Shown: one piece after another, positions 18,856 through 53,439 of the stretch
How positions within the stretch are numbered: the first letter of the stretch is position 1
How the letters are laid out: each line of letters opens with the position of its first letter
Assembly: GCA_019661945.1 (NCBI GenBank)
Contig: JAIFWI010000006.1
Location: 1-63,223, forward strand
DNA from: Candidatus Parcubacteria bacterium
GTDB taxonomy: Bacteria; Patescibacteriota; Minisyncoccia; Phycocordibacterales; JAKAEA01
DNA: 63,223 bases
Direction: 5' to 3'
Notes under the pieces: generated by a model
Database searches by the model: none
Seen by the model: only the letters and a program-made list of their open reading frames with translations
What the model was told of the DNA's origin: nothing
Translations under genes and position numbers: made by a program

Positions 18856-18863
18856 AAAACAGC

Positions 18864-19439: not shown

Positions 19440-19489
19440 TCTTTTTTTACATAAAACAGATGTACAGATTACAGATGGGCCGATGTCGA

Positions 19490-38658: not shown

Positions 38659-38770
38659 AGATCCTTGGACAGTAATTATATACTTTATACACTGCTCCGA
38701 AACTTGTGCACACCCCATAATTATGTTGATAAGTTGTGTATAAAGTGGGAATAGTGTATACTCACCAATC

Positions 38771-38905
38771 ATGTCTAGAACATATCAACCAAAGAAGAGA
38801 AAGCGCAGCCGTTCTCACGGCTTTCTTACCCGCCAAAGCACTAAAGGCGGAAAAAATACTATTAAACGACGCCGAGCGAAGGGACGAGCCAAGCTTTCAG
38901 TCTAA
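38771..38905 (+). CDS. rpmH: 50S ribosomal protein L34
   Basis: My translation reads [44 protein letters not shown] (44 aa). It is too short for the ORF track. Confidence 0.9.
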
Positions 38906-38908
38906 TCT

Positions 38909-39250: not shown

Positions 39251-39272
39251 AAATATCTGATACAATAATCCC

Positions 39273-39992
39273 ATGCGCGCATTTTTAAAAACAATTATTT
39301 ATATTCCACTCTACAACGCTCTAGTCGCTCTTATTGTTCTTATGCCCGGACATAGTGCGGGACTAGCTGTTATTTTGCTGACACTGCTTATTAGAATCAT
39401 TCTCTTTCCTCTCTCTCGCAAGGCTATAAAGACTCAAATTGAAATGCGTCGGATTGAACCAGAGGTGAAGCGTATTCGTGAGACAGTCAAAGATCGACAA
39501 GAACAAGCTCAGGCTTTAATGCAGTTGTATAAAGACAGAGATATAAATCCTTTTGCCAGTTTAGTGCTCATTATCATTCAGCTGCCGATCTTGATTGGGC
39601 TCTATAGTGTCTTTCGTAGCGGCTTGCCGATGATTAAACCGGAACTCCTGTATTCATTCATTCACGTGCCGGAATTTGTTTCGATGATTTTCGTCGGTAT
39701 TGATTTAGCTGGAAAAAGTTTGGTACTGGCTTTAGCTGCAGTCATTACTCAATTTATTCAGATAAATCTAGCCTTGCCGAAGTCAGTTAAAAAAGAAAAA
39801 GGTACATTTCAAGAAGATCTGGCCCATAATCTTAATATGCAGATGCGTTACATCATGCCGCTCGTTCTCTTCCCTATTGCCTACTTCTCGGCCGTTATTG
39901 CCCTCTATTTTACAACAAGTAATATTCTCATGACTTTGCAGGAGATTTTTATCAAGCGAAGATTAGAACGAAAACTCGAACCTAAGGTGTAA
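39273..39992 (+). CDS. yidC: Membrane protein insertase YidC (short form)
   Basis: 239 aa, five TM segments, LLIRIILFPLSRKAIKTQIEMRRIEPE motif. Confidence 0.85.
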   Translation: MRAFLKTIIYIPLYNALVALIVLMPGHSAGLAVILLTLLIRIILFPLSRKAIKTQIEMRRIEPEVKRIRETVKDRQEQAQALMQLYKDRDINPFASLVLIIIQLPILIGLYSVFRSGLPMIKPELLYSFIHVPEFVSMIFVGIDLAGKSLVLALAAVITQFIQINLALPKSVKKEKGTFQEDLAHNLNMQMRYIMPLVLFPIAYFSAVIALYFTTSNILMTLQEIFIKRRLERKLEPKV

Positions 39993-41208
39993 GACGAATA
40001 CTCCATGGTGTAGAATCTTTTTTGTTTGTGACAAAAAGATATTCTTCAGTTGGACTTAAGGTAATATGTGAGATGTCTAAATTCTTTGTGGTAATATTTT
40101 TTTCGTCAGTAAGTGGTTCATTTACCCCAGTATCAATTCTGATTGTGTACAGTTTGTCTGTAAAAGAAACTTGGCCTTGATACCATAGGTCTGGAAATTT
40201 ACCGGTACCGATAATTTTAGGAACAGCACAGTAGAGTGTGGAGCTTTGCTTTTTTGACCAAACACATTTATCAACGATTGTTCCAACCTTTGCCTGGGTG
40301 ATTGCGCCGGTTTTAACATTATAGAGTTGTAACAATGTGCTGGCATCAGTGAAAGCGACAAATGTGGCTGATGGATTAGTTAGGGTCGCTAAGGCGTTTA
40401 CTGGACCGAGAACTTTTTTAAGGCTGCCACTTGTAGGATTTAAGAAATAGGCGTATCCAGAAATACCGCTTGAGGGTTTGGTGGTAAGCGTAATAGTGTT
40501 TGTTTCCGGCCATGAAATGTTCCACTCAGTCAGAGCAGAGTTGAAAATAGTGCGTCGGTTGCTGCCATCACTTGCAGCAACGATGCCCTGTATTCCCCCG
40601 GATATTCTCTCAAGAAAAAATATCTTCTTTAAATCGGGCGAGGCCACAACTGCCTCAATGCCTTCAGACAAAAATGTGCCCTTTACTTCCCGAAGCGTTG
40701 TATCGACAGCCTTGCTTTTAACAAGGGCGGCATTATACGTTCGGATACTGTCTGTTTCAGAAAGGTAGCGATAGATAACAGTGTTGCCGCCATTAAGCCA
40801 CAGTGTCTCTTGAATTTTAGGCAGGGTTGTATTTGAGATCCGGGTCTGTTCTCCGGTAGACATGTTCACTTCAAAAATATGACCTTGAGCACGCTCTGCA
40901 AAGCGTACAAATGTTGTTGGTCCAGATGTATAGGCAAAAGTGCTGGCGGAAGGATCTGCTGAAAGTTGGGTGACGGTAGCTACAGGGATACTGACTGTTT
41001 CGTTATTGTCTGTAGGTTTTGTACTTGTTCCTATTTCGATTGGCCGATTTTCTGAATCCGGACCGAAAGGAGTAAACTCTTCATTGGAATTTTCTTCCTC
41101 AGCCGACGGGGTTGGAGCTGTATCATTTTTGAAAAAAACAATATAGCCGGCAAAGCCGAGAGCAATAATAAAGAAGAGAATTGATGTAATAAAAACTTTC
41201 TTAAGCAT
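39982..41208 (-). CDS. Membrane-anchored periplasm/surface protein, beta-propeller-like; last gene of the T4SS-like operon
   Basis: 408 aa. N-terminal TM segment and an acidic linker, then repeated beta-strand-rich blocks. No specific motif. Confidence 0.5.
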   Translation of the reverse strand: MLKKVFITSILFFIIALGFAGYIVFFKNDTAPTPSAEEENSNEEFTPFGPDSENRPIEIGTSTKPTDNNETVSIPVATVTQLSADPSASTFAYTSGPTTFVRFAERAQGHIFEVNMSTGEQTRISNTTLPKIQETLWLNGGNTVIYRYLSETDSIRTYNAALVKSKAVDTTLREVKGTFLSEGIEAVVASPDLKKIFFLERISGGIQGIVAASDGSNRRTIFNSALTEWNISWPETNTITLTTKPSSGISGYAYFLNPTSGSLKKVLGPVNALATLTNPSATFVAFTDASTLLQLYNVKTGAITQAKVGTIVDKCVWSKKQSSTLYCAVPKIIGTGKFPDLWYQGQVSFTDKLYTIRIDTGVNEPLTDEKNITTKNLDISHITLSPTEEYLFVTNKKDSTPWSIRLTP

Positions 41209-41224
41209 TTTCTTGTATTATATA

Positions 41225-41629
41225 CTATTTTGCTCTGTTCAAACTGTCGTAAATTCGATTAAGGTTCAGTAATTCTGGATTAATCGTCTGTAAAATAAGA
41301 GCGGAACCAAGGATAAGGACTAATCCCCACAAAGAACGTAAAATGATAGCTTTAGCATTGGTTTTTTTACCAAATGATTCGGCGCTAATATACATAAAAC
41401 CACCAACGACAAGAGATAGTACCGCTAAAACTCCTGAGAGACCGACAATGATTTTATACATAGCGCCAATATATTTTGGCAGCTCATTTGATTTAACCGA
41501 CGGTCCAATTTCTTTACTGATAGGTGCAAGCAGGACATAATCCTCTACGGCAATAACTCGGGCCGTAGGAAGGAAAAGTGTAGATATGATGAGACAGAGG
41601 GATATAATAAATAAAAATAAACGTTCCAT
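41225..41629 (-). CDS. VirB2/TrbC-like small two-helix membrane protein (putative pilin subunit)
   Basis: Signal peptide followed by two hydrophobic helices separated by a short charged loop (MYKIIVGLSGVLAVLSLVVGGFMYISAESFGKK..LWGLVLILGSALIL). The call rests on architecture only. Confidence 0.4.
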   Translation of the reverse strand: MERLFLFIISLCLIISTLFLPTARVIAVEDYVLLAPISKEIGPSVKSNELPKYIGAMYKIIVGLSGVLAVLSLVVGGFMYISAESFGKKTNAKAIILRSLWGLVLILGSALILQTINPELLNLNRIYDSLNRAK

Positions 41630-41633
41630 GAAA

Positions 41634-42617
41634 TTACTCCTCGGCATTGAAGGTAATAGTTACCTGTCGATTACTATATTGTAAAAGTTTTGCTGGGTTT
41701 GTGGCTTTTGCTCCAATCAGTGATCTACCTGTCTCAGTACCCGTATGGCGTAAGATAATCGAGCTGTCCTGCTCGGATGCCGCTGTATTATTGACGCGCC
41801 AATCAAAGGTAAGAGTAGAAAGATCGTGAGGAACGGCCGTGCTGAAGAAATAAGGTGCTGCTTTTAGCCATATTTCTTCATTTAGTAGGTTAATAGTCTG
41901 ACCTAAGGCTCGATGATAGAGTGGTCCGTAAAGTGGAGCCTCTTCGTATAAAACAATTTCAGGTGATTGCGGTGTTAAGACCACCCGGCCAGTACCTAAA
42001 GTCTTACCACTCTGTGAACTAACAGTGACTATCACTTCTATGGCTCTCAATACTACCCCACTTGTTACGGTCATTGAATCTTTGCCAAAGCCTGAAGCTT
42101 CTCGCACATTTTGGCCATTGACTTTCCAAGCATAGATTAGATTTTTTGGGCTTAGGCGAGTACCGTTTTCATAAAAATTTGACATAGCTACGACAGTAGC
42201 TTCTCCTTGAAATGGATACAGGGCCTTACCTCGGTAAAACGGCGGGGTATATGACTTTGCCTCCCAAATGAGATCAACTGTTCCCGGATTAATAACCTGG
42301 CTTACTTCATAGTCTTTACCATCAGCAGTAACAGCCACTACTCGAATGGATGTTTGTGAACCCTCCCGAGCAGCTGTGGTCTTAAAGCTTGTCTTGCCCT
42401 TACCGCTTGAGACTTCCGAACCATTAACAAGCCAGGTAATATCTGAGCGATTGAGATCAATAGCACCGCTCAAGACCGTAAAGCTTACACTTTGCCCTGG
42501 CTGAGGGTATTGAGGACTGAAGCGAAGAGATAATGTTGTATCAGGAAGCTGGGCAAAGACAGCCATGGGAAGATATAGTCCAAGCCCACATACTATATAA
42601 TAGAGAACCTTCTTCAT
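41634..42617 (-). CDS. Secreted Ig-like repeat protein
   Basis: 327 aa with a signal peptide ending AVFAQ. Beta-sandwich-like repeats. Confidence 0.5.
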   Translation of the reverse strand: MKKVLYYIVCGLGLYLPMAVFAQLPDTTLSLRFSPQYPQPGQSVSFTVLSGAIDLNRSDITWLVNGSEVSSGKGKTSFKTTAAREGSQTSIRVVAVTADGKDYEVSQVINPGTVDLIWEAKSYTPPFYRGKALYPFQGEATVVAMSNFYENGTRLSPKNLIYAWKVNGQNVREASGFGKDSMTVTSGVVLRAIEVIVTVSSQSGKTLGTGRVVLTPQSPEIVLYEEAPLYGPLYHRALGQTINLLNEEIWLKAAPYFFSTAVPHDLSTLTFDWRVNNTAASEQDSSIILRHTGTETGRSLIGAKATNPAKLLQYSNRQVTITFNAEE

Positions 42618-42641
42618 GGTATTAGTATACTATATGTTGAG

Positions 42642-43085
42642 TTAGGCTGCCTGTCGGTATTCTGACTCCTCTTCAGCATATTCCTCTTCTTCCTGCTGCT
42701 CTTGTTCTCGCATCTGGCGCATCCATAATGCTCTTTGGATTCGTTGTTCTTCCTCCTGTGAGGCAGCTTCGGCAGTTTCTTTTCCCTGAATTTTCATCTG
42801 GCGTTTTTTTTCGGAGCGAAAAATAAGTTCACTTGATATAAATTGCCAAGGAATGAAACTCAATGGCCAAATCCATGACAAAATAGTTGCAATGGCAGTA
42901 AGAACAATAACCTTCCAATCTTTAAGAAGGTGTAGGTAGCGCTTAATGCCGAGGTAGGCTTGATAGATCCAAAATATACCACTAAATAAAATTCCAGCCA
43001 CAGGTATCCAGCTCAAGACCCAAGCTAACCCAGATGCTATCCTTGAGTTTCGTCGATCACGTTTCAATGTATCTAGCTTATCCAT
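42642..43085 (-). CDS. Small 3-TM protein with an E/Q-rich tail
   Basis: 147 aa. Its start overlaps the VirB4-like stop by 1 nt (TAATG). Confidence 0.5.
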   Translation of the reverse strand: MDKLDTLKRDRRNSRIASGLAWVLSWIPVAGILFSGIFWIYQAYLGIKRYLHLLKDWKVIVLTAIATILSWIWPLSFIPWQFISSELIFRSEKKRQMKIQGKETAEAASQEEEQRIQRALWMRQMREQEQQEEEEYAEEESEYRQAA

Positions 43086-44896
43086 TAGGTTTGCCTACGT
43101 AGGTCCTCCTTTGCTTTTTTAATGGCTAGAATCTGCGAAGGATCTGACGTAATGATTTGATCTTCAGTATACGAAGCAATAACTTTAATAGCAACGTGTT
43201 TCACTCCGGCAAAGAAGATGCCCTCCCCTACATCGGACTCAAGGAGCAAATATTTTTCTTCATCAGTTAAGTTAAATGTTTGTTGAAGTTTATCAATTGA
43301 CGAGGGTGATTGTTTTAAGAGGACTTGAATTGAGGAGTTGGTAATAATCGGTAGGCCGTAGGGCGATTTCAAAAAGTCTTCAACGTCTTGAGTAATAGTA
43401 GATAATCCCAAGTAATATTTTCGTCCACGCTTTGCTAAGCCAAGCAAGAATGAGGCAGTATCTTCCGATTTCATCATCCACCAAGCTTCATCGATCACCA
43501 ACAGACGTTTCTTGATATTTTTACGAACAACATTCCAGATATAGTGAGTAACAATGTACATTGCAATTGGCTTCAATTCATCTTCCATATCACGAACAGA
43601 AAAGACAACAAACTTTTTATTCATGTCGACGTTTGTCGGCCGATTGATAAAACCGGCCCAGGTGCCTTTGGTATATTTGGTCAATCGTTGTGCCAATGAT
43701 TCCCCACCCTCCATACCTGCCAGTACCAATTCAAAATCAGAAAGGAGGGGTGGTTCAATGTTTGAGAAATCATTTTCAGGCGTAATATCTTTAAGAGCAT
43801 ATGTCTCTGTAATAGCTCGATCGATGATAGCATCTTCTTCTGGAGTAATTCCTCCAAGCATAATCCGAAAGAGACCGACTAGGTTAATAATATTTGAGCG
43901 TAAGACACTTGCCGGTGATTCATCTTCCTGAATGGGCGGCAAATCGAAAGGATTAATATGGTGTTCGGAATTAAGAGAAATATTAAAGTACCGGCCGCCG
44001 GTGGCTTCGGCCAGATATTCATACTCGCGTTCCGGATCAATGACAATGACTTCAGTATCAAACATAAGCGTTCTTAAAATCTCGAGCTTTGTTGTATATG
44101 ATTTTCCTGAGCCGGATTTTGCCAATGTTACTGAATTGTAGTTTTCAAGTGAGAAACGATCAAAAAGCACAAGACTTGAATTGTGGCGATTGATACCATA
44201 CAAAATTCCTTTATCAGAGGTTAAATCGAAAGAAATAAAGGGAAAAATACTTGAAAGTGGTGTCGAGTTTATTTTTGAATTCACCGACAACTCGTCATTT
44301 CCAAGAGGAATAACACTCTTAAAGCCTTGTTCTTGCTGGAAAAGTGCCGGCTTTACGTAGACCAGTTTTGATTCAAGAATCGATTTAATTTCTGATTCAA
44401 CCTTATCGAGTTCAGCATCAGTCTCACCATAAATTGAAATATAGAGGCCGACGTCAAATAATTTTTCCTGAGCTTGCTGAAGATTGTCGCGAAGGGTTTC
44501 TAGATCTTGGTAGGCAGTATCGAGAACTGGATCACGCACAAGACCCTTATCTTCCCTGATGCTGATCTGGCTTTGAATTTCAGCTACTTTCTTTTGAAAA
44601 TGACGGAGAATTGTTGCTGTATCAATTGGGTGAATGAAAATAGAAATATCAAAAATCTTGTCGAGATTGATGATTGGTGAGAACCAATTTTCGGACAAAA
44701 AACGTGGATACGAAATGACAAAGAAGGTCCTGACAATCTTATCACCCAAGTTCAGTGAACGTGGAGTGACTTTCAAAGCTGACGGAGCAATGATATCTTT
44801 AAGTTCAAGTGTAGCGGCTTGATAGACATCCTGAGGCAAGACTGTTGTATTCTCATCCTCTTTCTTATTCTTTTGTAGAAAACTAAATAATCCCAT
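43085..44896 (-). CDS. virB4: VirB4/TrbE/TrsE-family type IV secretion ATPase
   Basis: 603 aa. Walker A LAKSGSGKSYTTK and Walker B RLLVIDEAWWMM. The N-terminal domain pattern is typical of Gram-positive-type VirB4. Confidence 0.85.
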   Translation of the reverse strand: MGLFSFLQKNKKEDENTTVLPQDVYQAATLELKDIIAPSALKVTPRSLNLGDKIVRTFFVISYPRFLSENWFSPIINLDKIFDISIFIHPIDTATILRHFQKKVAEIQSQISIREDKGLVRDPVLDTAYQDLETLRDNLQQAQEKLFDVGLYISIYGETDAELDKVESEIKSILESKLVYVKPALFQQEQGFKSVIPLGNDELSVNSKINSTPLSSIFPFISFDLTSDKGILYGINRHNSSLVLFDRFSLENYNSVTLAKSGSGKSYTTKLEILRTLMFDTEVIVIDPEREYEYLAEATGGRYFNISLNSEHHINPFDLPPIQEDESPASVLRSNIINLVGLFRIMLGGITPEEDAIIDRAITETYALKDITPENDFSNIEPPLLSDFELVLAGMEGGESLAQRLTKYTKGTWAGFINRPTNVDMNKKFVVFSVRDMEDELKPIAMYIVTHYIWNVVRKNIKKRLLVIDEAWWMMKSEDTASFLLGLAKRGRKYYLGLSTITQDVEDFLKSPYGLPIITNSSIQVLLKQSPSSIDKLQQTFNLTDEEKYLLLESDVGEGIFFAGVKHVAIKVIASYTEDQIITSDPSQILAIKKAKEDLRRQT

Positions 44897-44905
44897 ACAA
44901 TATTA

Positions 44906-45541
44906 TTAGCCTAACTTAATTGGTTTTTCTGTCTCGCCTGGATTGAACAGTTTGTAAAATAATTCAACAATTTCTTCAGTGCCCAAACGAGCAACACGAA
45001 TGCCGCAGCGAATAAGACCCTGCTCGACAACGGAAACTCTTTCTTCAAGCTGTGCCCGATTTTCCTCATACATTTCAGTAGCTTCCTTCTTTACTTCCTC
45101 CTGTGGATGTTTTTTAAGGAGCGAGAGCGGATTCTTTTTGGTCAAAATTGCCGGGCTGTAGGGAATAATGACGAAGAAACTCTTGGTCATAATACTCGTT
45201 GTCTCGGTGAAATTTTTGACGAAGCCAATATATTCCTGAATTTGAATTTTTAACAAATCACTCATTTGTTCCTTTTCCCGCTGTTCAAGCAAAGCAAGAT
45301 ACGGCCTGATATCGAGTTTTCGTGATTCGATAAAAATTTGGATGGAGAAATCGAGGGAATTTAAGAAATCTTGGAACTGAAACAGGATAGCATTCTGCTC
45401 ATCAGCCGATTTCAGGGCAAAATTAAGAGAGGAACTCATAATAAGAGCACGCATTGAGTCATCTTTTAAGATAGCATAGCCATCCCGCACTTCTTTTATA
45501 GGCACAAATGCCTGTGTTGCCTTTCCCGGTTGCGAAGCCAT
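44906..45541 (-). CDS. Stand-alone protein resembling the VirB4 N-terminal domain
   Basis: 211 aa. FVPIKEVRDGYAILKDDSMRALIMSSSLNFALKSADEQNAILFQFQDFLNSLDFSIQIFIESRKLD parallels the N-terminal ~180 aa of the adjacent ATPase. No P-loop. Confidence 0.5.
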   Translation of the reverse strand: MASQPGKATQAFVPIKEVRDGYAILKDDSMRALIMSSSLNFALKSADEQNAILFQFQDFLNSLDFSIQIFIESRKLDIRPYLALLEQREKEQMSDLLKIQIQEYIGFVKNFTETTSIMTKSFFVIIPYSPAILTKKNPLSLLKKHPQEEVKKEATEMYEENRAQLEERVSVVEQGLIRCGIRVARLGTEEIVELFYKLFNPGETEKPIKLG

Positions 45542-45545
45542 ATGA

Positions 45546-45977
45546 TTATTGTATCACATCGTCCCTAGTCACTGGATTTAGGGACTCTCGGGTATCTAAA
45601 TTCCAGGTTAATTCCTTTAATTTACTGTTTGAGAGTTTTGGTATGAAGGCTGATGAGGCAGCACTTGGTTCCTCTTTCTTTATTTGTACGGCAGGCTTTG
45701 TTTCATGCTTCCAAATATAGAGCTTAGGATTGATGATATACATCACTGCATTTTCGAGAACGACGATGAATGGCCGATTATTGACCTTATAAAATGCCAA
45801 GGCAGACACAAAAGCAATAATAGGCATGATGAAAAACATCGATATGTACCAGGGAAATAAAAGATAGAAGACAACTGAAAGCCCTCCTCCACCGGCAAGG
45901 TACACAAACTGTTTTAAGGTAAGTGGGCCAAAGATTTTATCTTCTATTTCAATAAATTGTGGAATTTGAAACTTCAT
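45546..45977 (-). CDS. PrgI/VirB3-like small membrane protein
   Basis: 143 aa. MKFQIPQFIEIEDKIFGPLTLKQFVYLAGGGGLSVVFYLLF matches the PrgI-family start followed by two TM helices. Confidence 0.6.
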   Translation of the reverse strand: MKFQIPQFIEIEDKIFGPLTLKQFVYLAGGGGLSVVFYLLFPWYISMFFIMPIIAFVSALAFYKVNNRPFIVVLENAVMYIINPKLYIWKHETKPAVQIKKEEPSAASSAFIPKLSNSKLKELTWNLDTRESLNPVTRDDVIQ

Positions 45978-45982
45978 AACCT

Positions 45983-46753
45983 CTACAGACTCCTATGTTG
46001 CTTAACAATGAGTGGCATTAAATCCTCATGATGATCAGGCAAATTTGGCTGCATATCCAAATTATGGACTGTTTCTACCTGCTGTCGTAGAATCCCCTGA
46101 TTTTGCATAGGTGGAATAACCCGAGCTGTTGGCAAGTTTTGGGCCACAACAGGCTCTGGCACAGGTGCTACAAACTGGAGACGTGATGACGCTACATTAT
46201 GTGTATTTGATATAAAAGACTGAGGAATAAGCGCTGGTACGGCTGGCTTACTACGTAATCCTACTGGCGGAGCATAGGAGGATCGAGGAGAGCTTGTCAT
46301 CGGACTTGGTGTTGGATGTTCTATTTCATCAAGGATATGTCGCTGAATTGATGATTCGTTATCATGAGTGCCATCGTTTCCCCGAAGTGGCGGTAAGGGT
46401 GATTGTGGTTCCTTAGGATGTATACCTGTGTCCTCTTCCCCGGCATCAGGATCAATAGCATATGTTGAAGGATCGAGAATTAATTCATCAATATCAATGA
46501 GCACTTGTCGGGCAACGTCCTCAGGAAAATTGTATTCTCGGGAAATTTCTTGAATAAATTCATCAACGTAATACGTACCGGTAAGCAAAGCAAAAATTTT
46601 GAGAGCGAAATCATCTTCTTTACTTTCAGGCACGAGGTACTCATCAGAAATAAGGTGAACTGATTCAGCTACTTCTTGAGACATGATGTAATCCTGAAGT
46701 GCTTCGGGCAATTCATTATATGTGTCGTCTAATTGTTGCATTGAATATGGCAT
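45983..46753 (-). CDS. Hypothetical Pro-rich protein in the T4SS-like operon
   Basis: 256 aa. Acidic N-terminal half and Pro/Ser-rich C-terminal half. Confidence 0.5.
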   Translation of the reverse strand: MPYSMQQLDDTYNELPEALQDYIMSQEVAESVHLISDEYLVPESKEDDFALKIFALLTGTYYVDEFIQEISREYNFPEDVARQVLIDIDELILDPSTYAIDPDAGEEDTGIHPKEPQSPLPPLRGNDGTHDNESSIQRHILDEIEHPTPSPMTSSPRSSYAPPVGLRSKPAVPALIPQSFISNTHNVASSRLQFVAPVPEPVVAQNLPTARVIPPMQNQGILRQQVETVHNLDMQPNLPDHHEDLMPLIVKQHRSL

Positions 46754-46758
46754 ATATT

Positions 46759-49443
46759 TTAAATTTCATCTGATCTCCTATCTCCGCGTTCTACTCGGTC
46801 GGCAGCTGCATCTATTTCAGTTTGACGTTCGGCCTCCGTTCTTGCCGCTATCTGGCGTCGTTCTTCTCGGTGTGTCTGAGCGGCTTCTTGTTTGCCTTTT
46901 ACGTACCAATAATTATCTCGAGAATCTGCTTTTGCTTTAATAACATATTCATATGCCGGATTGTTTTCATCTTTAAGAATTTCTTCGACAACTTTCTCAA
47001 CCTGATCTTCATTAAGGGTCTTTTCTCGGGCAATAGTCTCAAGAGCTTTCTGTGAAAGGTTCTTAGCCACTCGTTTATCACTGAGTATTGTCGGCCTAAG
47101 TTTTGCCACCTGAGTATGAGGCATGTTTTTAATCGTTTTTGCCACAATTTCTTCTTGTTGTGCTGGATTAAGCTGGAAGTTATTAAAGGTATCAGTAATT
47201 TTATCCTGATTCTCGTCAATCTGTTCTTCTTGTGACTTTTTAGCAGACCGATGGACGGCAAGATATTCTTGAGCAGCCTTAACTCGAGCTCGGGCTTTGA
47301 CACTCTTACCACCTTTGGCCACAATTTTTGCGGCTCGTTCTGCCTGAGCATTTCGAGCTGAAGTAACTGCTGCTCTTTGGGTCCGGCCGAGGTTATCTTG
47401 GGCAGTTCTAAGATCTGTCTTTGCTTTAGTGATTCGTGCTTCTTTAGCTGCCTTTTCTGCTTCAGTATCTTCACGCATTAAGCTAGCCTCACTTATTTCT
47501 CGATCATGATGTGCCTCAGCAGCTTTCAATGTATCCTGAGCAGCATATACTTCCTTCCAACTCTCCTGTGCCACTGTCTCACCTTTCTTTCCCGCCTTTG
47601 TTGCATTCTTTTCTTTTTGAGCTTCAACACGTCCCTTATATCCTCCGCTCTTACGTGCTGGACCTAAGACTTTGCTAAAGCCTGCAACATTTCGAAGATC
47701 CCATTCTTTTGAAGCCTTTTTCTCAAGTCGCTCGAGTTCTTTCTTGGCACTTGGATCAGTCTTAGCAAGCTGAGTGAGGGTATCACGTCTTCGTTCAAGT
47801 TCATTGTATGCTTTCTTGCCACCAAAGAGTCTTTGGGCTGAATTTGAAATCCTATTGGCTGCAAAATTACCCGTCGTTCTACCGGCAAGTTTAGCCGTAC
47901 CGACTGCACTTCGTCGAGCCAATCGGCCCGAGCTTGAAAGGAAATTTTTACTTCGGCCGATGATGCTTGCGGCAAATCCACCGGAGCTTGTGGCTACCGA
48001 TGTGGCTACAAGTGTTGCAGCATTAATAAAGGCAATAAGCAGTACAAAGTTAATGATAGGTCCGAGAGAACTTTCAGTTGCGCCAGCGCCTCCGCCGCCT
48101 GGAGGCGGCGCTTTAGAACCTGTTCCCAGAGCACTAGCTAGGCCCTCAGTTGCGGCATCATAACTAAACCCTATACCGCCTGCCCCAGCTGGTTTATTTA
48201 AATTAGCAGCCATTAAAAGGACCAAAGTAATAAGCAACATGTAGAGCGGAGCAAAGGTCAATTGAGCCATGAGCGTATTCCACCATTTTCTTGCCCAGCC
48301 CATCGTTTGCGGCAAAATATATCCAAAATATCCAAGCGGTGACAAAATCAAAAGGCCAATAAGAATGACAAAACGCAGGAAAAATAGCATTCCTGCCCAG
48401 AAAAATGTCAGAGCAACAAACAAGAAGAATATTGAACCACCAATACCTATAGTCAGCATTCCTATCCACTGTTTTGAAATCAAGAACTCCTGAGCTTTTT
48501 CTGGATTATAAATATCAACAATACCAAGATCTTTAACAAGCTGTTCAGACATACTGCGGATATTTACACTGCCGCTGCCTGGTGCTGGTGGAGGTGTACC
48601 GGGGGGTGTTGCGGCCTGAGTCTGAGTAAATCGATCATAAAATGCCAGTGATACGACATTCGAAGCATCAATCAGAACCTTAGTAAAAAAGAGACTAAAG
48701 TTAACAAGCAATGCCACCAGAATTAAATTTCGAATAAGCTTTGTGGTATTTGTGCTCGCTAATCCAAGAATGGTAGTGATGGCAACGTACAGGAGGACAA
48801 AAATAAAGAAAAGATTGCCAATATCACGAATGATTGTCCAGCCAACATTAATGATAGAGATACCATTGATCTTGGTTGACATGGTCACGACACTAAATTT
48901 AATTGCCTCATCTAGAAAAAGTCCAGCCATTCCTGCCAGCCATGCTGTTACAAAAAGGAAGATGTAAGCAATCCAAGACGCAAGATCCTTGATACAGTTT
49001 TCGATAACCGGTGTTAGTCCGTCCCAGCATGCATTTGGATCAGTCCCGCCCTTTCCCGCCAACACTTTTTCGGTGTTACCAGCATTCTTTTGAGCTGCGT
49101 TAGCTAATACATCACTATCTTCGCCTTCAGGGTTATTCTGAATATTTGTAATAAAAGTGTTTATGGTATTGATTGTGCCCTGGGCACTTTTTACTTTACC
49201 CTTCGCTGCATCAAGATTTATTGCACTACCTGGACACAACGATTTGACCCCACAAAATGCTTCTTCGGCACGATTTTGCTCTTGCTGAGCTGCAGCAAGA
49301 GCAGCCTGAGCTCTCTGAAGAGCCGCTTGAGCTTTAGCCAAGTTTTCTGCCTTCGTGGCAGCATAAACCTGGATATTTTGATATGGAAAAAGAGAAACAG
49401 CGATGAGAAGGATGAGGATACATGTGCAGAGAATTCTTTTCAT
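46759..49443 (-). CDS. VirB6/TrbL-like polytopic membrane protein with a long charged coiled-coil C-terminus
   Basis: 894 aa. Signal peptide, about 8 TM helices between residues ~150 and 480, then a K/E/A/R-rich tail of about 400 aa. Confidence 0.5.
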   Translation of the reverse strand: MKRILCTCILILLIAVSLFPYQNIQVYAATKAENLAKAQAALQRAQAALAAAQQEQNRAEEAFCGVKSLCPGSAINLDAAKGKVKSAQGTINTINTFITNIQNNPEGEDSDVLANAAQKNAGNTEKVLAGKGGTDPNACWDGLTPVIENCIKDLASWIAYIFLFVTAWLAGMAGLFLDEAIKFSVVTMSTKINGISIINVGWTIIRDIGNLFFIFVLLYVAITTILGLASTNTTKLIRNLILVALLVNFSLFFTKVLIDASNVVSLAFYDRFTQTQAATPPGTPPPAPGSGSVNIRSMSEQLVKDLGIVDIYNPEKAQEFLISKQWIGMLTIGIGGSIFFLFVALTFFWAGMLFFLRFVILIGLLILSPLGYFGYILPQTMGWARKWWNTLMAQLTFAPLYMLLITLVLLMAANLNKPAGAGGIGFSYDAATEGLASALGTGSKAPPPGGGGAGATESSLGPIINFVLLIAFINAATLVATSVATSSGGFAASIIGRSKNFLSSSGRLARRSAVGTAKLAGRTTGNFAANRISNSAQRLFGGKKAYNELERRRDTLTQLAKTDPSAKKELERLEKKASKEWDLRNVAGFSKVLGPARKSGGYKGRVEAQKEKNATKAGKKGETVAQESWKEVYAAQDTLKAAEAHHDREISEASLMREDTEAEKAAKEARITKAKTDLRTAQDNLGRTQRAAVTSARNAQAERAAKIVAKGGKSVKARARVKAAQEYLAVHRSAKKSQEEQIDENQDKITDTFNNFQLNPAQQEEIVAKTIKNMPHTQVAKLRPTILSDKRVAKNLSQKALETIAREKTLNEDQVEKVVEEILKDENNPAYEYVIKAKADSRDNYWYVKGKQEAAQTHREERRQIAARTEAERQTEIDAAADRVERGDRRSDEI
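48079..48127 (-). repeat. GC-rich palindromic element in frame in the VirB6-like gene, carrying the array-element core
   Basis: The reverse strand ACAGGTTCTAAAGCGCCGCCTCCAGGCGGCGGAGGCGCTGGCGC encodes GTGSKAPPPGGGGAGA. TTAGAACCTGTT is a 12/12 match to E3/E5. Confidence 0.55.
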
Positions 49444-49444
49444 A

Positions 49445-51223
49445 TCAGTTTACGGTTACATCTCTAGTAGCAGTGCCGATTGCCCCATTTTGATCTGCCA
49501 CAGTATACGTTAGGGTATAGGTACCAGGAGTATCAATATTGACTGTACCGGTTGGAAGCGGAACGGTTAATGGTCTGCCTTGACCATCGACAGCATCTGC
49601 TCCTGCGTCTATGTATGAATTCCCTCGTGGTAGAAATACTGTGGATGGTCCGCGTAAGGTAATTGCCGGCAATATATATGTTTCAACCTCTACTTCGGCC
49701 AAGGCTAAACGTCCAGGCGCATTCGTTGTTGCCGTACTTTGAATTCGAACATATCGACCAGCTTTTACTCCTTGTCCGATGGTGCCCGGTACGTAGATGG
49801 TAATTTCATCATCTAAATCATGGGGATAGGTAGTGCTTTCCCAAACAAGATTTCTATTTTCATCAAAAATCTGGGCTCTCAGTACAAGATTGTTGATTCG
49901 ACCTTCATCAGGATTTGTTCTTTGGAAAATTCGGATCCGGCCAATGTCATATGTTCTTTCAAGATCTATTTCAACCCAAGGACTCGTTGCATCGGTTGTG
50001 CCTGTGCTTGGTGTTGATGAGTAGCCAGTATAGAGTTCATCAAAACCATTATCTCTATCGCTATCAACGATTTTTCGGGCAGGATTTCCAGTACGACTGC
50101 CTGAAGAATCAACTGGTTTACCCTGAGCAACGTTTTGGGCAGGCGTCACTCCTCCCGGAAGGCCGCCATTGTCTCCTGATGTAGCGCCGTCTATGTCATC
50201 AAGATAGTCACTAATATCCCCTGCTCGGTCGATTCGATCTCGAAAATTGTTTGAATTCTGATCACCACTAATGCCGCTGCTGCCAAGCAATCCTCCGGCA
50301 CTGGTGAGGAGCGTACTAAAAAGTTGATCAGCCAAGGCATTGAAAATTTTATCAAAGCTGTCTGCCAGGCCTATTTGATTTGCGGCGCCAAAAAATTGAG
50401 CATCAAGAGCAGCGCCGATAGTATGTCCCGGTGTGACAATGTCACAATTTCCGTATTCATCACATTCTTCTTGTGAAAAGAAACCGCTTCCCCAATCAAG
50501 TTTTGCTAATTCGATTGACTGACTCTGACCTATACGAGCATGAAGTGCAGCTTTTGATTCAAGGTATGCGCCGTAAGGATTGTTATACGGATTTTGAGTC
50601 ATACTAAACCAGCCATTCCAGCCGCCTTGAGAAAAATCCTTGAAGAATCCTTCAATGTTGCCGACAACATCTTCGAGGGTACATTGGGCTTGTCTGCCCA
50701 AATCATTTCCGTATGAATAATTTATGGCAAGAGCAATTTGAACTTGAGCTTTAAATGGACTACACAAAAATGCCAAATCTGAACTTAAAATAATATCGCT
50801 CAGTAATCCATCACCAATGTTAAGCAAGAAGCCGCCTGGATCAGTTAAAAATTTAGGGCTGCCATCGAAGCCGCCATTGATCCATGCCACTAAAGAATTT
50901 GTTATTTCTGCAATGACAAGTCGGGCAAAAGCAATTGCTAGTGGTTTTTGTAAACAATCCTGCCAAAATTGAGTGTAGGTTGCTCCTGTTTGAGCGCCGT
51001 CTGTATAAATCGAGCCAGCATTTGTTACCGGTACAACTGGTTTAAGTTTTTCTCCTGAACTTTGGAGAAAAGATGGAAGAAATATTCCAAGACACGCTCC
51101 TACTCCCGTAGCCTGAGCTTCTGCTTTTTGAGGAAGGGTTAATAATGTTGCGGGAACGATGAGCGACAGTATCAAGATACCGCTCAGAATTTTTTTAGAA
51201 TATGTTCGTATAATTCTTTTCAC
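49445..51223 (-). CDS. Secreted protein with a discoidin (F5/8 type C)-like domain and a C-terminal Ig-like (DUF5011-like) domain
   Basis: 592 aa. Signal peptide ending KAEAQ. NVAQGKP..WVEIDLERTYDIGRIRIF is a discoidin-like pattern. The C-terminal end reads TPGTYTLTYTVADQNGAIGTATRDVTV. Confidence 0.55.
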   Translation of the reverse strand: MKRIIRTYSKKILSGILILSLIVPATLLTLPQKAEAQATGVGACLGIFLPSFLQSSGEKLKPVVPVTNAGSIYTDGAQTGATYTQFWQDCLQKPLAIAFARLVIAEITNSLVAWINGGFDGSPKFLTDPGGFLLNIGDGLLSDIILSSDLAFLCSPFKAQVQIALAINYSYGNDLGRQAQCTLEDVVGNIEGFFKDFSQGGWNGWFSMTQNPYNNPYGAYLESKAALHARIGQSQSIELAKLDWGSGFFSQEECDEYGNCDIVTPGHTIGAALDAQFFGAANQIGLADSFDKIFNALADQLFSTLLTSAGGLLGSSGISGDQNSNNFRDRIDRAGDISDYLDDIDGATSGDNGGLPGGVTPAQNVAQGKPVDSSGSRTGNPARKIVDSDRDNGFDELYTGYSSTPSTGTTDATSPWVEIDLERTYDIGRIRIFQRTNPDEGRINNLVLRAQIFDENRNLVWESTTYPHDLDDEITIYVPGTIGQGVKAGRYVRIQSTATTNAPGRLALAEVEVETYILPAITLRGPSTVFLPRGNSYIDAGADAVDGQGRPLTVPLPTGTVNIDTPGTYTLTYTVADQNGAIGTATRDVTVN

Positions 51224-51227
51224 GCTT

Positions 51228-52235
51228 TTAACTATTCATTAAAATGTACCCTGAATCTGTCTGACTAAATTGTATTCCGGTCTTTTTTAAATATGCCGCT
51301 ACCTCACGTATTGCTTTTGATGAACCGACGGCTGCTTCTTGATATAAGGTCAAAGATACAATTGACTGGGCTGAGTCTTCAAAAACTTTTAATAAGCCCT
51401 CATCGGCTTTAATTGCAAACTGTAAATTATTAATAAAATCCAGATGAGATGTGGCTACATTTTGTGGTACGGGTAGAGCAAGTAATCCGGCTATGATTTT
51501 TCTATATGCCGTGATCATTGCTTCTATTTTTTTAAGTTCAGCAGGATTATTTTTTTCAACGGCTACATTAGCGATGACAAGTTCGTTGATCAGAAGTCCT
51601 TCTTTATCAAATTGAGCAAATGAATTGCTAAGGATAATTTTTCCAAATGCATTTCCATAATTTCTTAATGCCTCGGGAGTATTAGTCGTTAATTTAAGAT
51701 GTCCCAGGTTATATGTAGGTTTGGTATCTGTTGTTGTTTTACTTGCATCGATGAAATTTTGGACTAATTGTTGTTCAATGCCGGGTGTAATCTCTTTACC
51801 GGTTTGTTTTAGAGTCATATATTGAGTAAAGAGATCGCGAGCGAGTTTTTCGGTTGTAGTAAGTGGAGCTGAAGCAGTACTTGAAGTCGTTTCTTTTTTG
51901 GTTTCAAGTTTATCGTTTGGTCCTTTTACAGCGGGATTTCTGTTTTGATTAATTTCAGTATTGTCCGATGTGCCGTCTCCATCAGTATCTTTATTGTTAG
52001 GACTCGTACCCCAGAGTGATTCTTCCCAATCTTTAAGACCATCACCGTCAGCATCACGCTCGGTTAACCTATTTTGAATGCTGACTTCGGCAGTGACTGC
52101 CGCAAATTGCGATTCAGTAGCGGCGCTTATGTTTTTTGGGCTTGAGGTGGGATAAAGAGCAGCAAAACTAATGCTTATAACTGCAATAAGACAAGCGATA
52201 ATGAGCGGTATAATCTTTTTTGATGGTAACTTCAA
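51228..52235 (-). CDS. Anchored protein with thrombospondin type-3-like Ca-binding repeats; first gene of the operon
   Basis: 335 aa. Repeats DADGDGLKDWEE..DTDGDGTSDNTE. Confidence 0.5.
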   Translation of the reverse strand: MKLPSKKIIPLIIACLIAVISISFAALYPTSSPKNISAATESQFAAVTAEVSIQNRLTERDADGDGLKDWEESLWGTSPNNKDTDGDGTSDNTEINQNRNPAVKGPNDKLETKKETTSSTASAPLTTTEKLARDLFTQYMTLKQTGKEITPGIEQQLVQNFIDASKTTTDTKPTYNLGHLKLTTNTPEALRNYGNAFGKIILSNSFAQFDKEGLLINELVIANVAVEKNNPAELKKIEAMITAYRKIIAGLLALPVPQNVATSHLDFINNLQFAIKADEGLLKVFEDSAQSIVSLTLYQEAAVGSSKAIREVAAYLKKTGIQFSQTDSGYILMNS

Positions 52236-53436: not shown

Positions 53437-53439
53437 GCT

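What the first reader, a model, noticed from the sequence alone, without database searches (positions are those of the whole stretch)
39982..52235. Chromosomal 12-gene T4SS-derived operon with no coupling protein, relaxase or VirB11 in view
Twelve minus-strand ORFs run from 52235 to 39982. Gaps between them are 0-25 nt, and there are stop/start overlaps such as TAATG at 43085.

The recognisable parts are:
- a VirB4-type ATPase (GSGKS; LLVIDEAWWMM);
- a separate ORF that resembles only the VirB4 N-domain;
- a PrgI/VirB3-like protein;
- an 894-aa VirB6/TrbL-like polytopic protein with a ~400-aa charged tail;
- a VirB2/TrbC-like two-helix mini-protein.

The other seven are signal-peptide or TM proteins carrying adhesin-type modules: discoidin-like, Ig-like, DxDGDG Ca-binding repeats and a propeller-like fold.

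Nothing in the window looks like VirD4, VirB11, a relaxase, an integrase or a lytic transglycosylase. The operon also abuts the origin core genes (yidC) rather than an obvious mobile element.

This points to a non-conjugative surface machine for DNA uptake, attachment or effector delivery to a host cell. More than half of its subunits are unassignable by eye.
Basis: partly seen in the sequence, partly recalled or inferred. Interest (0 to 1): 0.7.

Follow-up and report, generated by a model that had tools for sequence, protein, structure and literature searches.

The report
Known Patescibacteria type IV secretion operon
This is the chromosomal type IV secretion gene cluster, lacking a relaxase and sitting next to the replication origin, that most Patescibacteria carry (here in a Paceibacteria-class genome); it is real and probably vital to the cell, but it was already described in 2023-2025 and its transported cargo is still unknown.

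Summary
The operon is real, but it has 11 tightly packed minus-strand genes (39982-52235), not 12.

HMMs confirm these parts:
- a VirB4 ATPase of the monoderm CD1110 type (380.8 bits, above cut-off);
- a separate TrsD-like ORF that supplies the missing VirB4 N-domain;
- PrgI/VirB3;
- a VirB2-type pilin.

The 894-aa protein has no Pfam hit itself. Its homologues carry TrbL/VirB6 domains, and its AlphaFold model best matches R388 TrwI/VirB6.

The remaining six genes are also conserved families. They include a membrane-anchored 7-bladed beta-propeller and a protein with a conserved N-domain plus swappable adhesin modules.

The 63-kb contig holds no VirD4, VirB11, relaxase, integrase or att repeats.

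At least 592 species-level genomes encode a relative of this VirB4. The 80 best, named Parcubacteria/Paceibacteria where a class is given, are 76-90% identical. In 36 of 37 fully flanked loci the block sits between ksgA and yidC-rnpA-dnaA-dnaN. So it is a fixed, vertically inherited core operon, not an ICE.

All of this matches the published Patescibacteria T4SS (Wang 2023; Quinonero-Coronel 2025).

The most likely role is a pilus-forming host-contact conduit, probably for taking up host material.

The parts
51228..52235 (-). g1, 335 aa. N-terminal membrane anchor, thrombospondin-type-3 (DxDGDG) Ca-binding repeats, and a conserved C-terminal domain of about 200 aa with unknown fold.
   Evidence: TM segment at residues 8-26. 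TSP3_bac 7.2e-5, below cut-off. CglD/MtsD repeat region matched weakly. Detected by tblastn in 22 of 37 syntenic loci, and a best-matching ORF in 36 of the 80 loci. No PDB sequence match.
49445..51223 (-). g2, 592 aa. Signal/anchor sequence, a conserved N-terminal domain (about aa 80-320), then lineage-variable C-terminal adhesin modules; here these are a discoidin/galactose-binding domain and a bacterial Ig-like domain. Possible VirB5/TraI-like tip or stalk subunit (a lead only).
   Evidence: Pfam Bact_surface_Ig-like 3.4e-16; F5/8 type C 5.4e-6. Only the N-domain is conserved among orthologues. C-terminal modules differ between homologues: Flg_new_2, SdrD_B, fn3, discoidin. 5 of 77 family members hit DUF4141 (best 3.8e-8) and 1 of 77 hits the VirB5 family PF07996 at 0.0093; the window protein hits neither. 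The family has 6317 representative clusters.
46759..49443 (-). g3, 894 aa. 'Extended' VirB6/TrbL-like polytopic membrane protein: signal peptide, N-terminal coiled coil, a core of about 6-7 TM helices (aa ~150-490), and a charged coiled-coil tail of about 400 aa.
   Evidence: No Pfam hit on the protein itself. Homologues at E 1e-38 to 1e-11 carry PF04610 TrbL and PF19590 and are named 'type IV secretion system protein'. AlphaFold model of residues 1-560 has pLDDT 77. Top Foldseek PDB hits are R388 TrwI/VirB6: 8rt9_F with probability 0.99, E 0.023, TM 0.39. TM segments. Present in 36 of 37 loci.
45983..46753 (-). g4, 256 aa. Predicted cytoplasmic protein with a conserved helical N-domain of about 110 aa and a variable proline-rich disordered tail. 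Orthologues end in a DPYREP motif that is degenerate in this copy.
   Evidence: No TM segment and no Pfam, NCBIfam or PDB hit. jackhmmer recovers 47 of 50 ORFs at the same position in related loci. C-terminal motif shown.
45546..45977 (-). g5, 143 aa. PrgI/VirB3-like two-TM protein.
   Evidence: Pfam PrgI 1e-10, 42.5 bits against a cut-off of 27. TM segments at 24-42 and 45-63. Present in 37 of 37 loci at median 48% identity.
44906..45541 (-). g6, 211 aa. TrsD-like protein, i.e. the detached N-terminal domain of VirB4.
   Evidence: NCBIfam VirB4_plasma positions 102-282, 1.5e-11; TrsD 3.7e-5; CD1110 positions 4-104. Present in 37 of 37 loci at median 62% identity.
43085..44896 (-). g7, 603 aa. 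VirB4-family ATPase (C-terminal motor part) of the monoderm MPF-FATA-like CD1110 type. Walker A is GSGKS; Walker B is LLVIDEAW.
   Evidence: NCBIfam conju_CD1110 1.3e-113, 380.8 bits above the 325 cut-off, model positions 169-733 of 752. Pfam P-loop_TraG 1.4e-26 and AAA_10. 76-90% identical to the best 80 species-level genomes.
42642..43085 (-). g8, 147 aa. Small membrane protein with two TM helices here and an acidic C-terminal tail. Its start overlaps the virB4 stop (TAATG).
   Evidence: TM segments at 16-34 and 60-78. ORFs at the same position in relatives have 2-4 TM helices and share a 'LIP(F/V)(A/V)G' motif; 23 were recovered by jackhmmer. Overlap shown. No family hit.
41634..42617 (-). 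g9, 327 aa. Secreted protein with a signal peptide and probable tandem Ig/fn3-like beta domains.
   Evidence: Hydrophobic N-terminus at 4-22 and a conserved AQ at positions 22-23. Only weak Ig_3, fn3, GldM_2nd and BiPBP_C hits at E 0.02-0.09. Weak Hoc/Ig hits in the PDB. Present in 37 of 37 loci at median 33% identity.
41225..41647 (-). g10, 140 aa. VirB2/TrbC-type T4SS pilin with a long signal peptide and two hydrophobic helices.
   Evidence: Pfam T4SS_pilin 3.7e-6, 27.4 bits against a cut-off of 26.6. NCBIfam Mbov_0395 pilin-like 2.7e-4. TM segments at 10-28, 66-84 and 101-119. Orthologues hit T4SS_pilin down to 2.6e-9.
39982..41208 (-). g11, 408 aa. N-terminal TM anchor, a disordered linker of about 40 aa, and an extracytoplasmic 7-bladed beta-propeller. 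Some orthologues are fused to a peptidoglycan-binding domain.
   Evidence: AlphaFold pLDDT 90, pTM 0.80. Foldseek gives generic WD40/TolB-like propellers at 1e-9 to 1e-11. Homologues carry PF01471 PG_binding_1. Present in 37 of 37 loci.
35965..39992 (.). Origin-core neighbours: dnaN (35965-37062, -), dnaA (37318-38772, -), rpmH (38771-38905, +), rnpA (38909-39250, +), yidC (39273-39992, +).
   Evidence: Pfam hits. L34 translation. The cumulative GC-skew minimum lies at about 36-40 kb. Neighbourhood conserved in 36 of 37 loci.
52327..54688 (.). Upstream neighbours: a divergent PG_binding_1 + IPT/TIG surface protein (52327-53436, +), a 138-aa ORF, and ksgA (53846-54688, -). ksgA is the conserved boundary of the block.
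   Evidence: Pfam hits. ksgA found in 30 of 37 loci and the PG-binding/TIG protein in 9 of 37.

Best explanation
This is the Paceibacteria-class version of the chromosomal 'Patescibacteria-clade' type IV secretion system. That system is a vertically inherited, origin-proximal derivative of the monoderm (MPF-FATA-like) conjugation machinery that no longer serves conjugation.

Shown here: the operon encodes a membrane translocon and energy module made of
- a split VirB4, i.e. a TrsD-like N-domain plus the ATPase;
- PrgI/VirB3;
- an extended VirB6;
- a VirB2-type pilin;
- six further conserved envelope or accessory proteins.

Inferred by homology: VirB4, VirB3 and VirB6 extract the VirB2 pilin from the membrane and polymerise a pilus or tube through the cell wall. 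The anchored beta-propeller (g11), the Ig-like protein (g9) and the Ca-binding protein (g1) would form the wall-spanning scaffold, standing in for the missing VirB8/9/10-type parts. g2, with its conserved N-domain and swappable lectin/Ig modules, would provide host-surface recognition.

Most likely purpose (inference, about 45% within this model): a contact-dependent conduit through which the epibiont acquires host cytoplasmic macromolecules such as RNA or nucleic acids, rather than exporting DNA.
For: Component identities:
- VirB4 of the CD1110 type scores above the curated cut-off, and the TrsD-like ORF supplies the missing N-domain.
- PrgI and T4SS_pilin score above their Pfam cut-offs.
- The VirB6 assignment rests on TrbL-annotated homologues and the top structural match to R388 TrwI/VirB6.

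Core-gene behaviour:
- At least 592 species genomes encode a relative, and the 80 best are 76-90% identical in VirB4.
- Median VirB4 identity is 80%, against 61% for DnaA and 49% for DnaN in the same loci.
- Gene order ksgA-[g1..g11]-yidC-rnpA-dnaA-dnaN is kept in 36 of 37 loci.
- g4 and g8 are also conserved families.

Nothing conjugative: no relaxase, T4CP, VirB11, integrase or att repeats in the 63-kb contig.

Surface parts:
- g11 is a TM-anchored propeller, with PG-binding fusions in relatives.
- g2 has variable adhesin modules on a conserved N-domain.

Literature:
- The same component set (VirB4, TrsD, PrgI, VirB6, VirB2-like pilin), the absence of a relaxase and the position beside dnaA/dnaN/rnpA/ksgA/rpmH are described for Patescibacteria, including Paceibacteria (PMC12102498).
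- The homologous cluster is essential for epibiotic growth of Southlakia epibionticum, while comEC is dispensable (PMC10633639, PMC12857230).
- Tubular structures penetrating the host, together with host-RNA uptake, are reported for a cultivated Microgenomatia strain (bioRxiv 10.64898/2026.06.21.733656).
- T4SS pilins and a protein with a galactose-binding fold are among the most highly expressed genes of unknown function in Paceibacterales MAGs (PMC10936435).
Against: - There are no functional data for any Paceibacteria system. The direction of transport and the cargo are pure inference.
- The VirB6 HMM does not hit this protein directly, and the structural match is weak (E 0.023, TM about 0.4).
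- The pilin hit is only just above threshold.
- No VirB8-like or VirB1-like component was identified in the operon. The scaffold roles given to g1, g9 and g11 rest only on predicted location and synteny.
- A VirD4-like T4CP may be encoded elsewhere in the genome (reported as common in PMC12102498), which would leave export possible.
- The link between g2 and VirB5/DUF4141 is seen in only a few family members, not in the window protein.
Confidence: 0.8

Rival explanations
1. Contact-dependent protein (effector or toxin) exporter. The machine injects or secretes proteins into or onto the host bacterium or archaeon to subvert or permeabilise it, as effector-translocating T4SSs do.
For: This is the usual non-conjugative role of T4SSs. 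Wang et al. suggest the S. epibionticum system 'may instead export proteins' (PMC10633639). T4CP-less exporters exist, such as Bordetella Ptl and Brucella VirB (PMC12102498, PMC12857230). g4 is a conserved cytoplasmic protein with a near-invariant C-terminal DPYREP motif in orthologues, which could be a docking or secretion signal.
Against: There is no T4CP substrate receptor in the operon or the contig. The distal T4CP of S. epibionticum was not essential, whereas the T4SS genes were (PMC12102498). No candidate effector genes are evident in the conserved block: all 11 genes are kept as structural-looking families.
Confidence: 0.25
2. Adhesion-only pilus machine. The VirB4/VirB3/VirB6 module only assembles a VirB2 pilus tipped or decorated with adhesins for host attachment, and nothing passes through it.
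For: The identifiable parts are those linked to pilus formation: the VirB4 ATPase, which the literature ties to pilus biogenesis (PMC12102498), with its membrane partners VirB3 and VirB6 and the VirB2 pilin. The operon also carries adhesin-type modules (discoidin, Ig, TSP3) and variable host-recognition modules on g2.
Against: The same window already encodes a type IV pilus system: a PilB-type ATPase, pilins and a 1120-aa ORF. In Saccharibacteria that system provides adhesion and motility (PMC12857230). VirB4 being more conserved than DnaA suggests a more central role than attachment alone.
Confidence: 0.15
3. DNA-uptake (competence) T4SS, analogous to H. pylori ComB or the archaeal Ced system. 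It would import environmental or host DNA for nucleotides or recombination.
For: DNA-importing T4SS-related systems exist: H. pylori ComB (cited in PMC11665869) and the archaeal Ced system (PMC12102498). The P-loop region of g7 gives a weak CedB hit, 4.3e-9. Import of DNA or other macromolecules is the hypothesis favoured in PMC12102498.
Against: In S. epibionticum, natural transformation depends on type IV pili and ComEC, and comEC is dispensable for growth while the T4SS is essential (PMC12857230). The CedB hit covers only about 70 residues around the Walker B region.
Confidence: 0.1
4. Ordinary or decaying conjugative element (ICE) whose relaxase, T4CP and integrase lie outside the contig.
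For: The VirB4 belongs to a family typical of monoderm conjugative elements (CD1110). The window is a whole contig, so the rest of the genome is unseen.
Against: The insertion context and gene order are identical in 36 of 37 species-level loci, between housekeeping genes at the origin. VirB4 identity of 76-90% exceeds that of DnaA. No att-like repeats are present, and GC content is the same as in the flanks. Relaxases were found in only 103 of 3,035 Patescibacteria genomes (PMC12102498).
Confidence: 0.02

Closest known systems
Patescibacteria-clade T4SS (S. epibionticum SEML1_0006-0019; survey of 3,035 genomes in Quinonero-Coronel et al. 2025, PMC12102498; Wang et al. 2023, PMC10633639)
   Same: The component set is the same: VirB4, a TrsD-like protein, PrgI/VirB3, VirB6 and a VirB2-like pilin. 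There is no relaxase and no T4CP nearby. The cluster is chromosomal and sits next to dnaA, dnaN, rnpA, ksgA and rpmH.
   Different: This is a Paceibacteria-type layout with a single short pilin gene instead of the six-pilin array of S. epibionticum. No peptidase or lysozyme gene follows virB4. Six conserved accessory genes (g1, g2, g4, g8, g9, g11) are not named in the main text of those papers that I searched and read (supplementary tables not checked).
Monoderm conjugative T4SS of the MPF-FATA class (pCF10 Prg/Pcf, pGO1 Trs, C. difficile CTn elements)
   Same: The VirB4 is of the CD1110 type. A TrsD-like protein is present, as in the pGO1 subclass. PrgI is present. The gene order VirB6, then VirB3, then VirB4 mirrors prgH-prgI-prgJ (from my own knowledge of pCF10).
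   Different: There is no relaxase, T4CP, PrgK-type hydrolase, PrgL/VirB8-like protein or PrgB adhesin. A VirB2-type pilin is present, which Gram-positive systems lack (PMC12857230). The cluster is fixed in the chromosome rather than mobile.
H. pylori ComB DNA-uptake T4SS and the archaeal Ced DNA-import system
   Same: These are T4SS-derived machines that work in import (PMC11665869, PMC12102498). From my own knowledge of these systems, not checked here, they do so without a relaxase or a T4CP.
   Different: ComB is a diderm VirB2-4 and VirB6-10 system. Ced uses CedA/A1/A2/B. Only a weak P-loop similarity to CedB was seen here. Competence in the one tested Patescibacterium depends on type IV pili and ComEC, and comEC is dispensable for growth while the T4SS is essential (PMC12857230).
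R388/pKM101 'minimized' Gram-negative T4SS (VirB2, VirB3, VirB4, VirB5, VirB6 stalk and inner-membrane complex)
   Same: The g3 model best matches TrwI/VirB6 in the stalk complex. A VirB2-type pilin is present. A protein with a DUF4141/VirB5-like N-terminus in some family members sits directly upstream of the VirB6-like gene.
   Different: There is no outer-membrane core (VirB7/9/10), VirB8, VirB11 or VirD4. VirB4 is split. VirB6 carries a 400-aa charged tail.

Membership tests
Type IV secretion system (any class) | A VirB4-family ATPase, the only universal T4SS hallmark | tested here: met
   NCBIfam conju_CD1110 at 380.8 bits against a cut-off of 325, and TIGR00929 VirB4_CagE at 1.6e-34. Pfam P-loop_TraG at 1.4e-26.
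Patescibacteria-clade T4SS (MPF-FATA-derived) | The VirB4 groups with Patescibacteria VirB4s rather than with plasmid or ICE VirB4s | tested here: inconclusive
   No tree was built. The 80 best of at least 592 species-genome matches are 76-90% identical, and every one whose record title gives a taxon is a Patescibacteria MAG, mostly Parcubacteria/Paceibacteria. The best curated model is a monoderm conjugative family, consistent with nesting inside MPF-FATA.
Patescibacteria-clade T4SS (MPF-FATA-derived) | A TrsD-like protein (VirB4 N-domain homologue) encoded next to virB4 | tested here: met
   The 211-aa ORF hits VirB4_plasma positions 102-282 (1.5e-11) and TrsD (3.7e-5, below the curated cut-off). 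It lies 9 nt upstream of virB4.
Patescibacteria-clade T4SS (MPF-FATA-derived) | A PrgI/VirB3 homologue near virB4 | tested here: met
   Pfam PrgI at 42.5 bits against a cut-off of 27.
Patescibacteria-clade T4SS (MPF-FATA-derived) | A VirB6/TrbL-like polytopic protein near virB4 | tested here: inconclusive
   A direct Pfam scan finds nothing. Homologues at E down to 1e-38 carry PF04610 and PF19590. The top Foldseek hits are TrwI/VirB6, but weak (E 0.023, probability 0.99, TM 0.39).
Patescibacteria-clade T4SS (MPF-FATA-derived) | A VirB2-like pilin near virB4 | tested here: met
   Pfam T4SS_pilin at 27.4 bits against a cut-off of 26.6. Orthologues reach 2.6e-9. The protein has a signal peptide followed by two hydrophobic helices.
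Patescibacteria-clade T4SS (MPF-FATA-derived) | Chromosomal position close to dnaA, dnaN, rnpA, rpmH and ksgA | tested here: met
   for the window. The position is conserved in 36 of 37 loci.
Patescibacteria-clade T4SS (MPF-FATA-derived) | Required for host-dependent growth | not testable with these tools
   Shown only for S. epibionticum by Tn-seq (PMC10633639). Here it is supported only indirectly, by VirB4 being more conserved than DnaA.
Conjugative element (ICE or plasmid T4SS) | A relaxase and oriT | tested here: not met
   No relaxase family hit in any large ORF of the 63-kb contig. The rest of the genome is unseen.
Conjugative element (ICE or plasmid T4SS) | A VirD4/TcpA-type coupling protein | tested here: not met
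   None in the contig. A distal copy cannot be excluded, because the window is the whole contig.
Conjugative element (ICE or plasmid T4SS) | An integrase and flanking att repeats, with variable presence among relatives | tested here: not met
   No integrase. Only two chance 16-17-nt repeats, neither of which brackets the block. The context is fixed in 36 of 37 loci.
VirB5 / TraI (DUF4141) tip-stalk proteins (for g2) | Match to PF07996 or PF13605 at the mature N-terminus | tested here: not met
   The window protein has no hit even at E up to 1. Within its family, 5 of 77 members hit DUF4141 (best 3.8e-8, residues 22-57) and 1 of 77 hits PF07996 at 0.0093. This remains a lead, not a membership.
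VirB11 ATPase | A VirB11-type hexameric traffic ATPase belonging to the system | tested here: not met
   The only T2SSE-family ATPase in the window (15776-17455) is PilB/GspE-type: TIGR02538 at 432 bits against VirB11 at 51 bits. It sits with type IV pilin genes 24 kb away.

The most novel reading that the evidence does not exclude
The six unassigned but conserved genes complete a monoderm pilus-conduit architecture that has not yet been described.

- g2 would be a VirB5/TraI-type tip protein. Its conserved N-domain would dock on the VirB6 stalk, and its interchangeable lectin/Ig modules would set host range.
- The anchored propeller g11 (fused to a PG-binding domain in some relatives), the Ig-repeat protein g9 and the Ca-binding protein g1 would form a wall-spanning collar that replaces VirB8/9/10.
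- g4 would dock through its C-terminal DPYREP peptide onto the split VirB4 (TrsD-like N-domain plus ATPase) as an adaptor that substitutes for the missing coupling protein.

Together these would run the T4SS in reverse, to pull host RNA or nucleic acid into the epibiont.
Probability: 0.15. Interest if true: 0.75.

Novelty: already known. Interest (0 to 1): 0.3.

Why it matters
Patescibacteria (the Candidate Phyla Radiation) are estimated to make up about a quarter of bacterial diversity (PMC7427843). They cannot make their own nucleotides, amino acids or fatty acids (PMC10633639). This T4SS is one of the few conserved candidates for the machine that links them to their hosts, and it was essential in the one species tested. 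Working out its cargo and direction of transport would explain how these organisms feed.

This window does not open that question, because the system, its missing relaxase and its position at the origin are already published. It does give a clean Paceibacteria example. It also shows that the whole 11-gene block is conserved across many species, including a propeller, an Ig-repeat protein and a protein with variable adhesin modules. That narrows the list of parts to test.

Tried and rejected
- Direct Pfam and NCBIfam scans of g3, g4, g8, g9 and g11 gave nothing significant.
- Profile searches of the g1, g2, g3, g4, g9 and g11 families against PDB sequences gave only noise: coiled-coil proteins, calmodulin EF-loops, and TolB at E 0.1.
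- I guessed that the long C-terminal extensions of orthologous pilins, many ending in an H-x-H pattern, are M15-type peptidoglycan peptidases. Pfam gave no support, so I dropped the idea.
- The ICE hypothesis was rejected on synteny, on conservation and on the absence of att repeats.
- I checked whether the PilB-like ATPase could be the missing VirB11. It is a type IV pilus ATPase.
- The promoter and terminator scans were uninformative: counts were close to those of the shuffles.
- No twelfth ORF could be found.

Full report
**Observation**

The minus strand between 39982 and 52235 carries 11 ORFs of 335, 592, 894, 256, 143, 211, 603, 147, 327, 140 and 408 aa. The TAATG stop/start overlap at 43085 is real. 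GC content in the block (0.39-0.44) is the same as in its flanks.

**T4SS components**

- g7 (603 aa) scores 380.8 bits on NCBIfam conju_CD1110, 'VirB4-like conjugal transfer ATPase', against a curated cut-off of 325. The match covers only model positions 169-733 of 752. Pfam gives P-loop_TraG at 1.4e-26 plus AAA_10.
- g6 (211 aa) is the upstream ORF. It matches the missing N-terminal part: CD1110 positions 4-104, VirB4_plasma positions 102-282 at 1.5e-11, and TrsD at 3.7e-5. VirB4 is therefore split into a TrsD-like N-domain and the motor.
- g5 is PrgI/VirB3 (1e-10, above cut-off).
- g10 is a T4SS_pilin, just above cut-off (27.4 against 26.6 bits). It has a signal peptide and two hydrophobic helices.
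- g3 (894 aa) has no Pfam hit, even at E up to 1. Its database homologues, with E values from 1e-38 to 1e-11, carry PF04610 (TrbL/VirB6) and PF19590, and some are named 'type IV secretion system protein'. An AlphaFold model of residues 1-560 (pLDDT 77) has R388 TrwI/VirB6 chains as its top PDB matches (8rt9_F, probability 0.99, E 0.023, TM 0.39). I accept 'extended VirB6-like' on combined but indirect evidence.

**The other six genes**

- g2 carries a bacterial Ig-like domain (3.4e-16) and a discoidin domain just under cut-off. Only its N-terminal part, about aa 80-320, is conserved in orthologues. The C-terminal modules change between lineages: discoidin, InlB B-repeat, SdrD_B, fn3. A profile of the family finds 6317 representative clusters, with lengths of 330-1170 aa among those listed. 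Five of 77 members hit the short DUF4141 model at their mature N-terminus (best 3.8e-8), and one hits the VirB5 family at 0.0093. The window protein hits neither. A VirB5/TraI-like role is a lead only.
- g11 is a TM-anchored 7-bladed beta-propeller (pLDDT 90). Some orthologues are fused to a peptidoglycan-binding domain.
- g9 is a secreted protein with weak Ig/fn3 signals.
- g1 is an anchored protein with TSP3-type Ca-binding repeats that score below cut-off.
- g4 is cytoplasmic and g8 is a small membrane protein. tblastn missed both, but iterative HMM searches recover 47 of 50 (g4) and 23 (g8) ORFs at the same positions in related loci.

**Context**

The rest of the contig is housekeeping: ruvABC, polA, tsaE, tyrS, a PBP1, an IscS-like gene, dnaN, dnaA, rpmH, rnpA, yidC, ksgA, a UvrD-family helicase gene, an M23/LysM peptidase, a YifB-family ATPase gene and a DksA/TraR-type zinc-finger gene. 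It also holds a type IV pilus cluster.

There is no VirD4, relaxase or integrase. The only T2SSE-family ATPase is PilB-type (432 bits against 51 for VirB11). No att-like repeats bracket the block. The window is the whole contig, so the rest of the genome cannot be inspected.

**Comparative evidence**

A scan of one genome per species found at least 592 genomes with a relative of this VirB4. The best 80 are 76-90% identical. Those named below phylum level are Parcubacteria/Paceibacteria lineages (Zambryski-, Taylor-, Nomura-, Kaiser- and Adlerbacteria), and many others are labelled only 'uncultured Candidatus Saccharibacteria' or 'bacterium'.

In 37 loci with full 10-kb flanks, the order uvrD-ksgA-[g1 g2 g3 g4 g5 g6 g7 g8 g9 g10 g11]-yidC-rnpA-dnaA-dnaN is kept in 36. 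Median identities in those loci:

| Protein | Median identity |
|---|---|
| VirB4 | 80% |
| TrsD-like g6 | 62% |
| DnaA | 61% |
| DnaN | 49% |
| PrgI (g5) | 48% |
| KsgA | 46% |
| YidC | 43% |
| g1, g2, g3, g9, g11 | 27-33% |

A VirB4 more conserved than DnaA, in a fixed position, is the signature of a vertically inherited core function. It is not the signature of a mobile element.

**Comparison with the literature**

- Quinonero-Coronel et al. 2025 (PMC12102498) surveyed 3,035 Patescibacteria genomes. They describe a monophyletic VirB4 clade nested in MPF-FATA. It is accompanied by TrsD, PrgI/VirB3, VirB6 and VirB2-like pilins. Relaxases occur in only 103 genomes, and T4CP genes are mostly far from virB4. 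In Paceibacteria and Microgenomatia the cluster lies next to dnaA, dnaN, rnpA, ksgA and rpmH.
- Wang et al. 2023 (PMC10633639) showed by Tn-seq that the homologous cluster (SEML1_0006-0019) is essential for epibiotic growth of S. epibionticum. It lacks recognisable coupling and relaxase proteins.
- The 2025 FEMS review calls these systems unique among monoderm T4SSs for their essentiality and their potential pili.
- In Paceibacterales enrichments, T4SS pilins and a protein with a galactose-binding fold are among the most highly expressed genes of unknown function (PMC10936435).

**Mechanism**

Shown by homology: an energy and translocon module (split VirB4, VirB3, VirB6) and a VirB2 pilin.

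Inferred: VirB4 extracts pilin from the membrane and drives assembly of a tube through the wall. g11, g9 and g1 scaffold the tube in the cell wall, and g2 recognises the host surface through its variable modules.

Purpose: I favour uptake of host macromolecules through a contact conduit, at about 45%. The reasons are:
- the T4CP substrate receptor is absent locally, and the distal copy was dispensable in S. epibionticum;
- comEC-dependent competence is dispensable there, while the T4SS is essential;
- a 2026 preprint reports tubes penetrating the host, together with host-RNA uptake, in a cultivated Microgenomatia strain.

The rivals are effector export (about 25%), an adhesion-only pilus (about 15%), ComB/Ced-like DNA uptake (about 10%) and an ICE (about 2%).

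**Verdict**

This is a real, well-delimited and biologically important operon, but it is already known as a kind. This window adds a clean Paceibacteria instance and some incremental detail on conserved accessory genes. Interest is 0.3.

Noticed in passing
window 45983-46753 (-); orthologues e.g. L013:8173-8859, L022:8198-8815, L001:1-630: The g4 family ends in an almost invariant C-terminal 'DPYREP(I/L)x' peptide after a variable proline-rich linker. This holds in about 37 of 39 Paceibacteria orthologues and in the closest relative, L001. The window's own copy ends '...PDHHEDLMPLIVKQHRSL', so the motif is degenerate here. It may be a short docking motif; its partner is unknown.
   Followed up: partly
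window 41225-41647 (-); orthologues e.g. L019:13287-14162, L007:15062-16363, L052:16024-17871: The window's VirB2-like pilin is 140 aa. Most orthologues are 200-600 aa: a signal peptide, the T4SS_pilin domain, and a long variable C-terminal extension with no Pfam hit. Many extensions end in an H-x-H pattern. Some loci have two such genes.
   Followed up: partly
window 35965-52235: The 12-kb operon converges on yidC and is transcribed towards the presumed oriC in the dnaA-rpmH intergenic region. It would therefore be head-on to the rightward replication fork. This orientation is kept in 36 of 37 related loci. The published suggestion of a gene-dosage benefit does not address it.
   Followed up: no
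window 6772-17455: A type IV pilus cluster lies in the same window. It comprises two pilins with N-terminal methylation motifs (6772-7347, 7686-8207), a 1120-aa ORF with no family hit (8213-11575) and a PilB-type ATPase (15776-17455).
   Followed up: partly
window 52327-53436 (+) and 57546-58691 (+): Cell-wall-related genes flank the operon. A divergently transcribed PG_binding_1 + IPT/TIG protein lies immediately upstream and is syntenic in 9 of 37 loci. An M23/LysM peptidase lies 5 kb away. Either could be the peptidoglycan-remodelling (VirB1-like) helper that the operon itself lacks.
   Followed up: partly
window 18000-20500: A locally high-GC stretch (0.54, against about 0.41 elsewhere) contains an ORF with RTX/HemolysinCabind repeats (19490-20464, -). 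It overlaps a 354-aa ORF on the opposite strand.
   Followed up: no
L060, L061, L071, L039 (VirB4 of about 703-712 aa): In several related loci VirB4 is about 100 aa longer. In L039, and in L060, L061 and L071, no separate g8-like ORF lies between virB4 and g9. This may be a fusion or a replacement of the small membrane protein. The extension was not examined.
   Followed up: no
L070: This is the one locus of 37 in which the block is rearranged: the matches to g6, g7 and g5 lie on the opposite strand to the matches to the rest of the operon.
   Followed up: no
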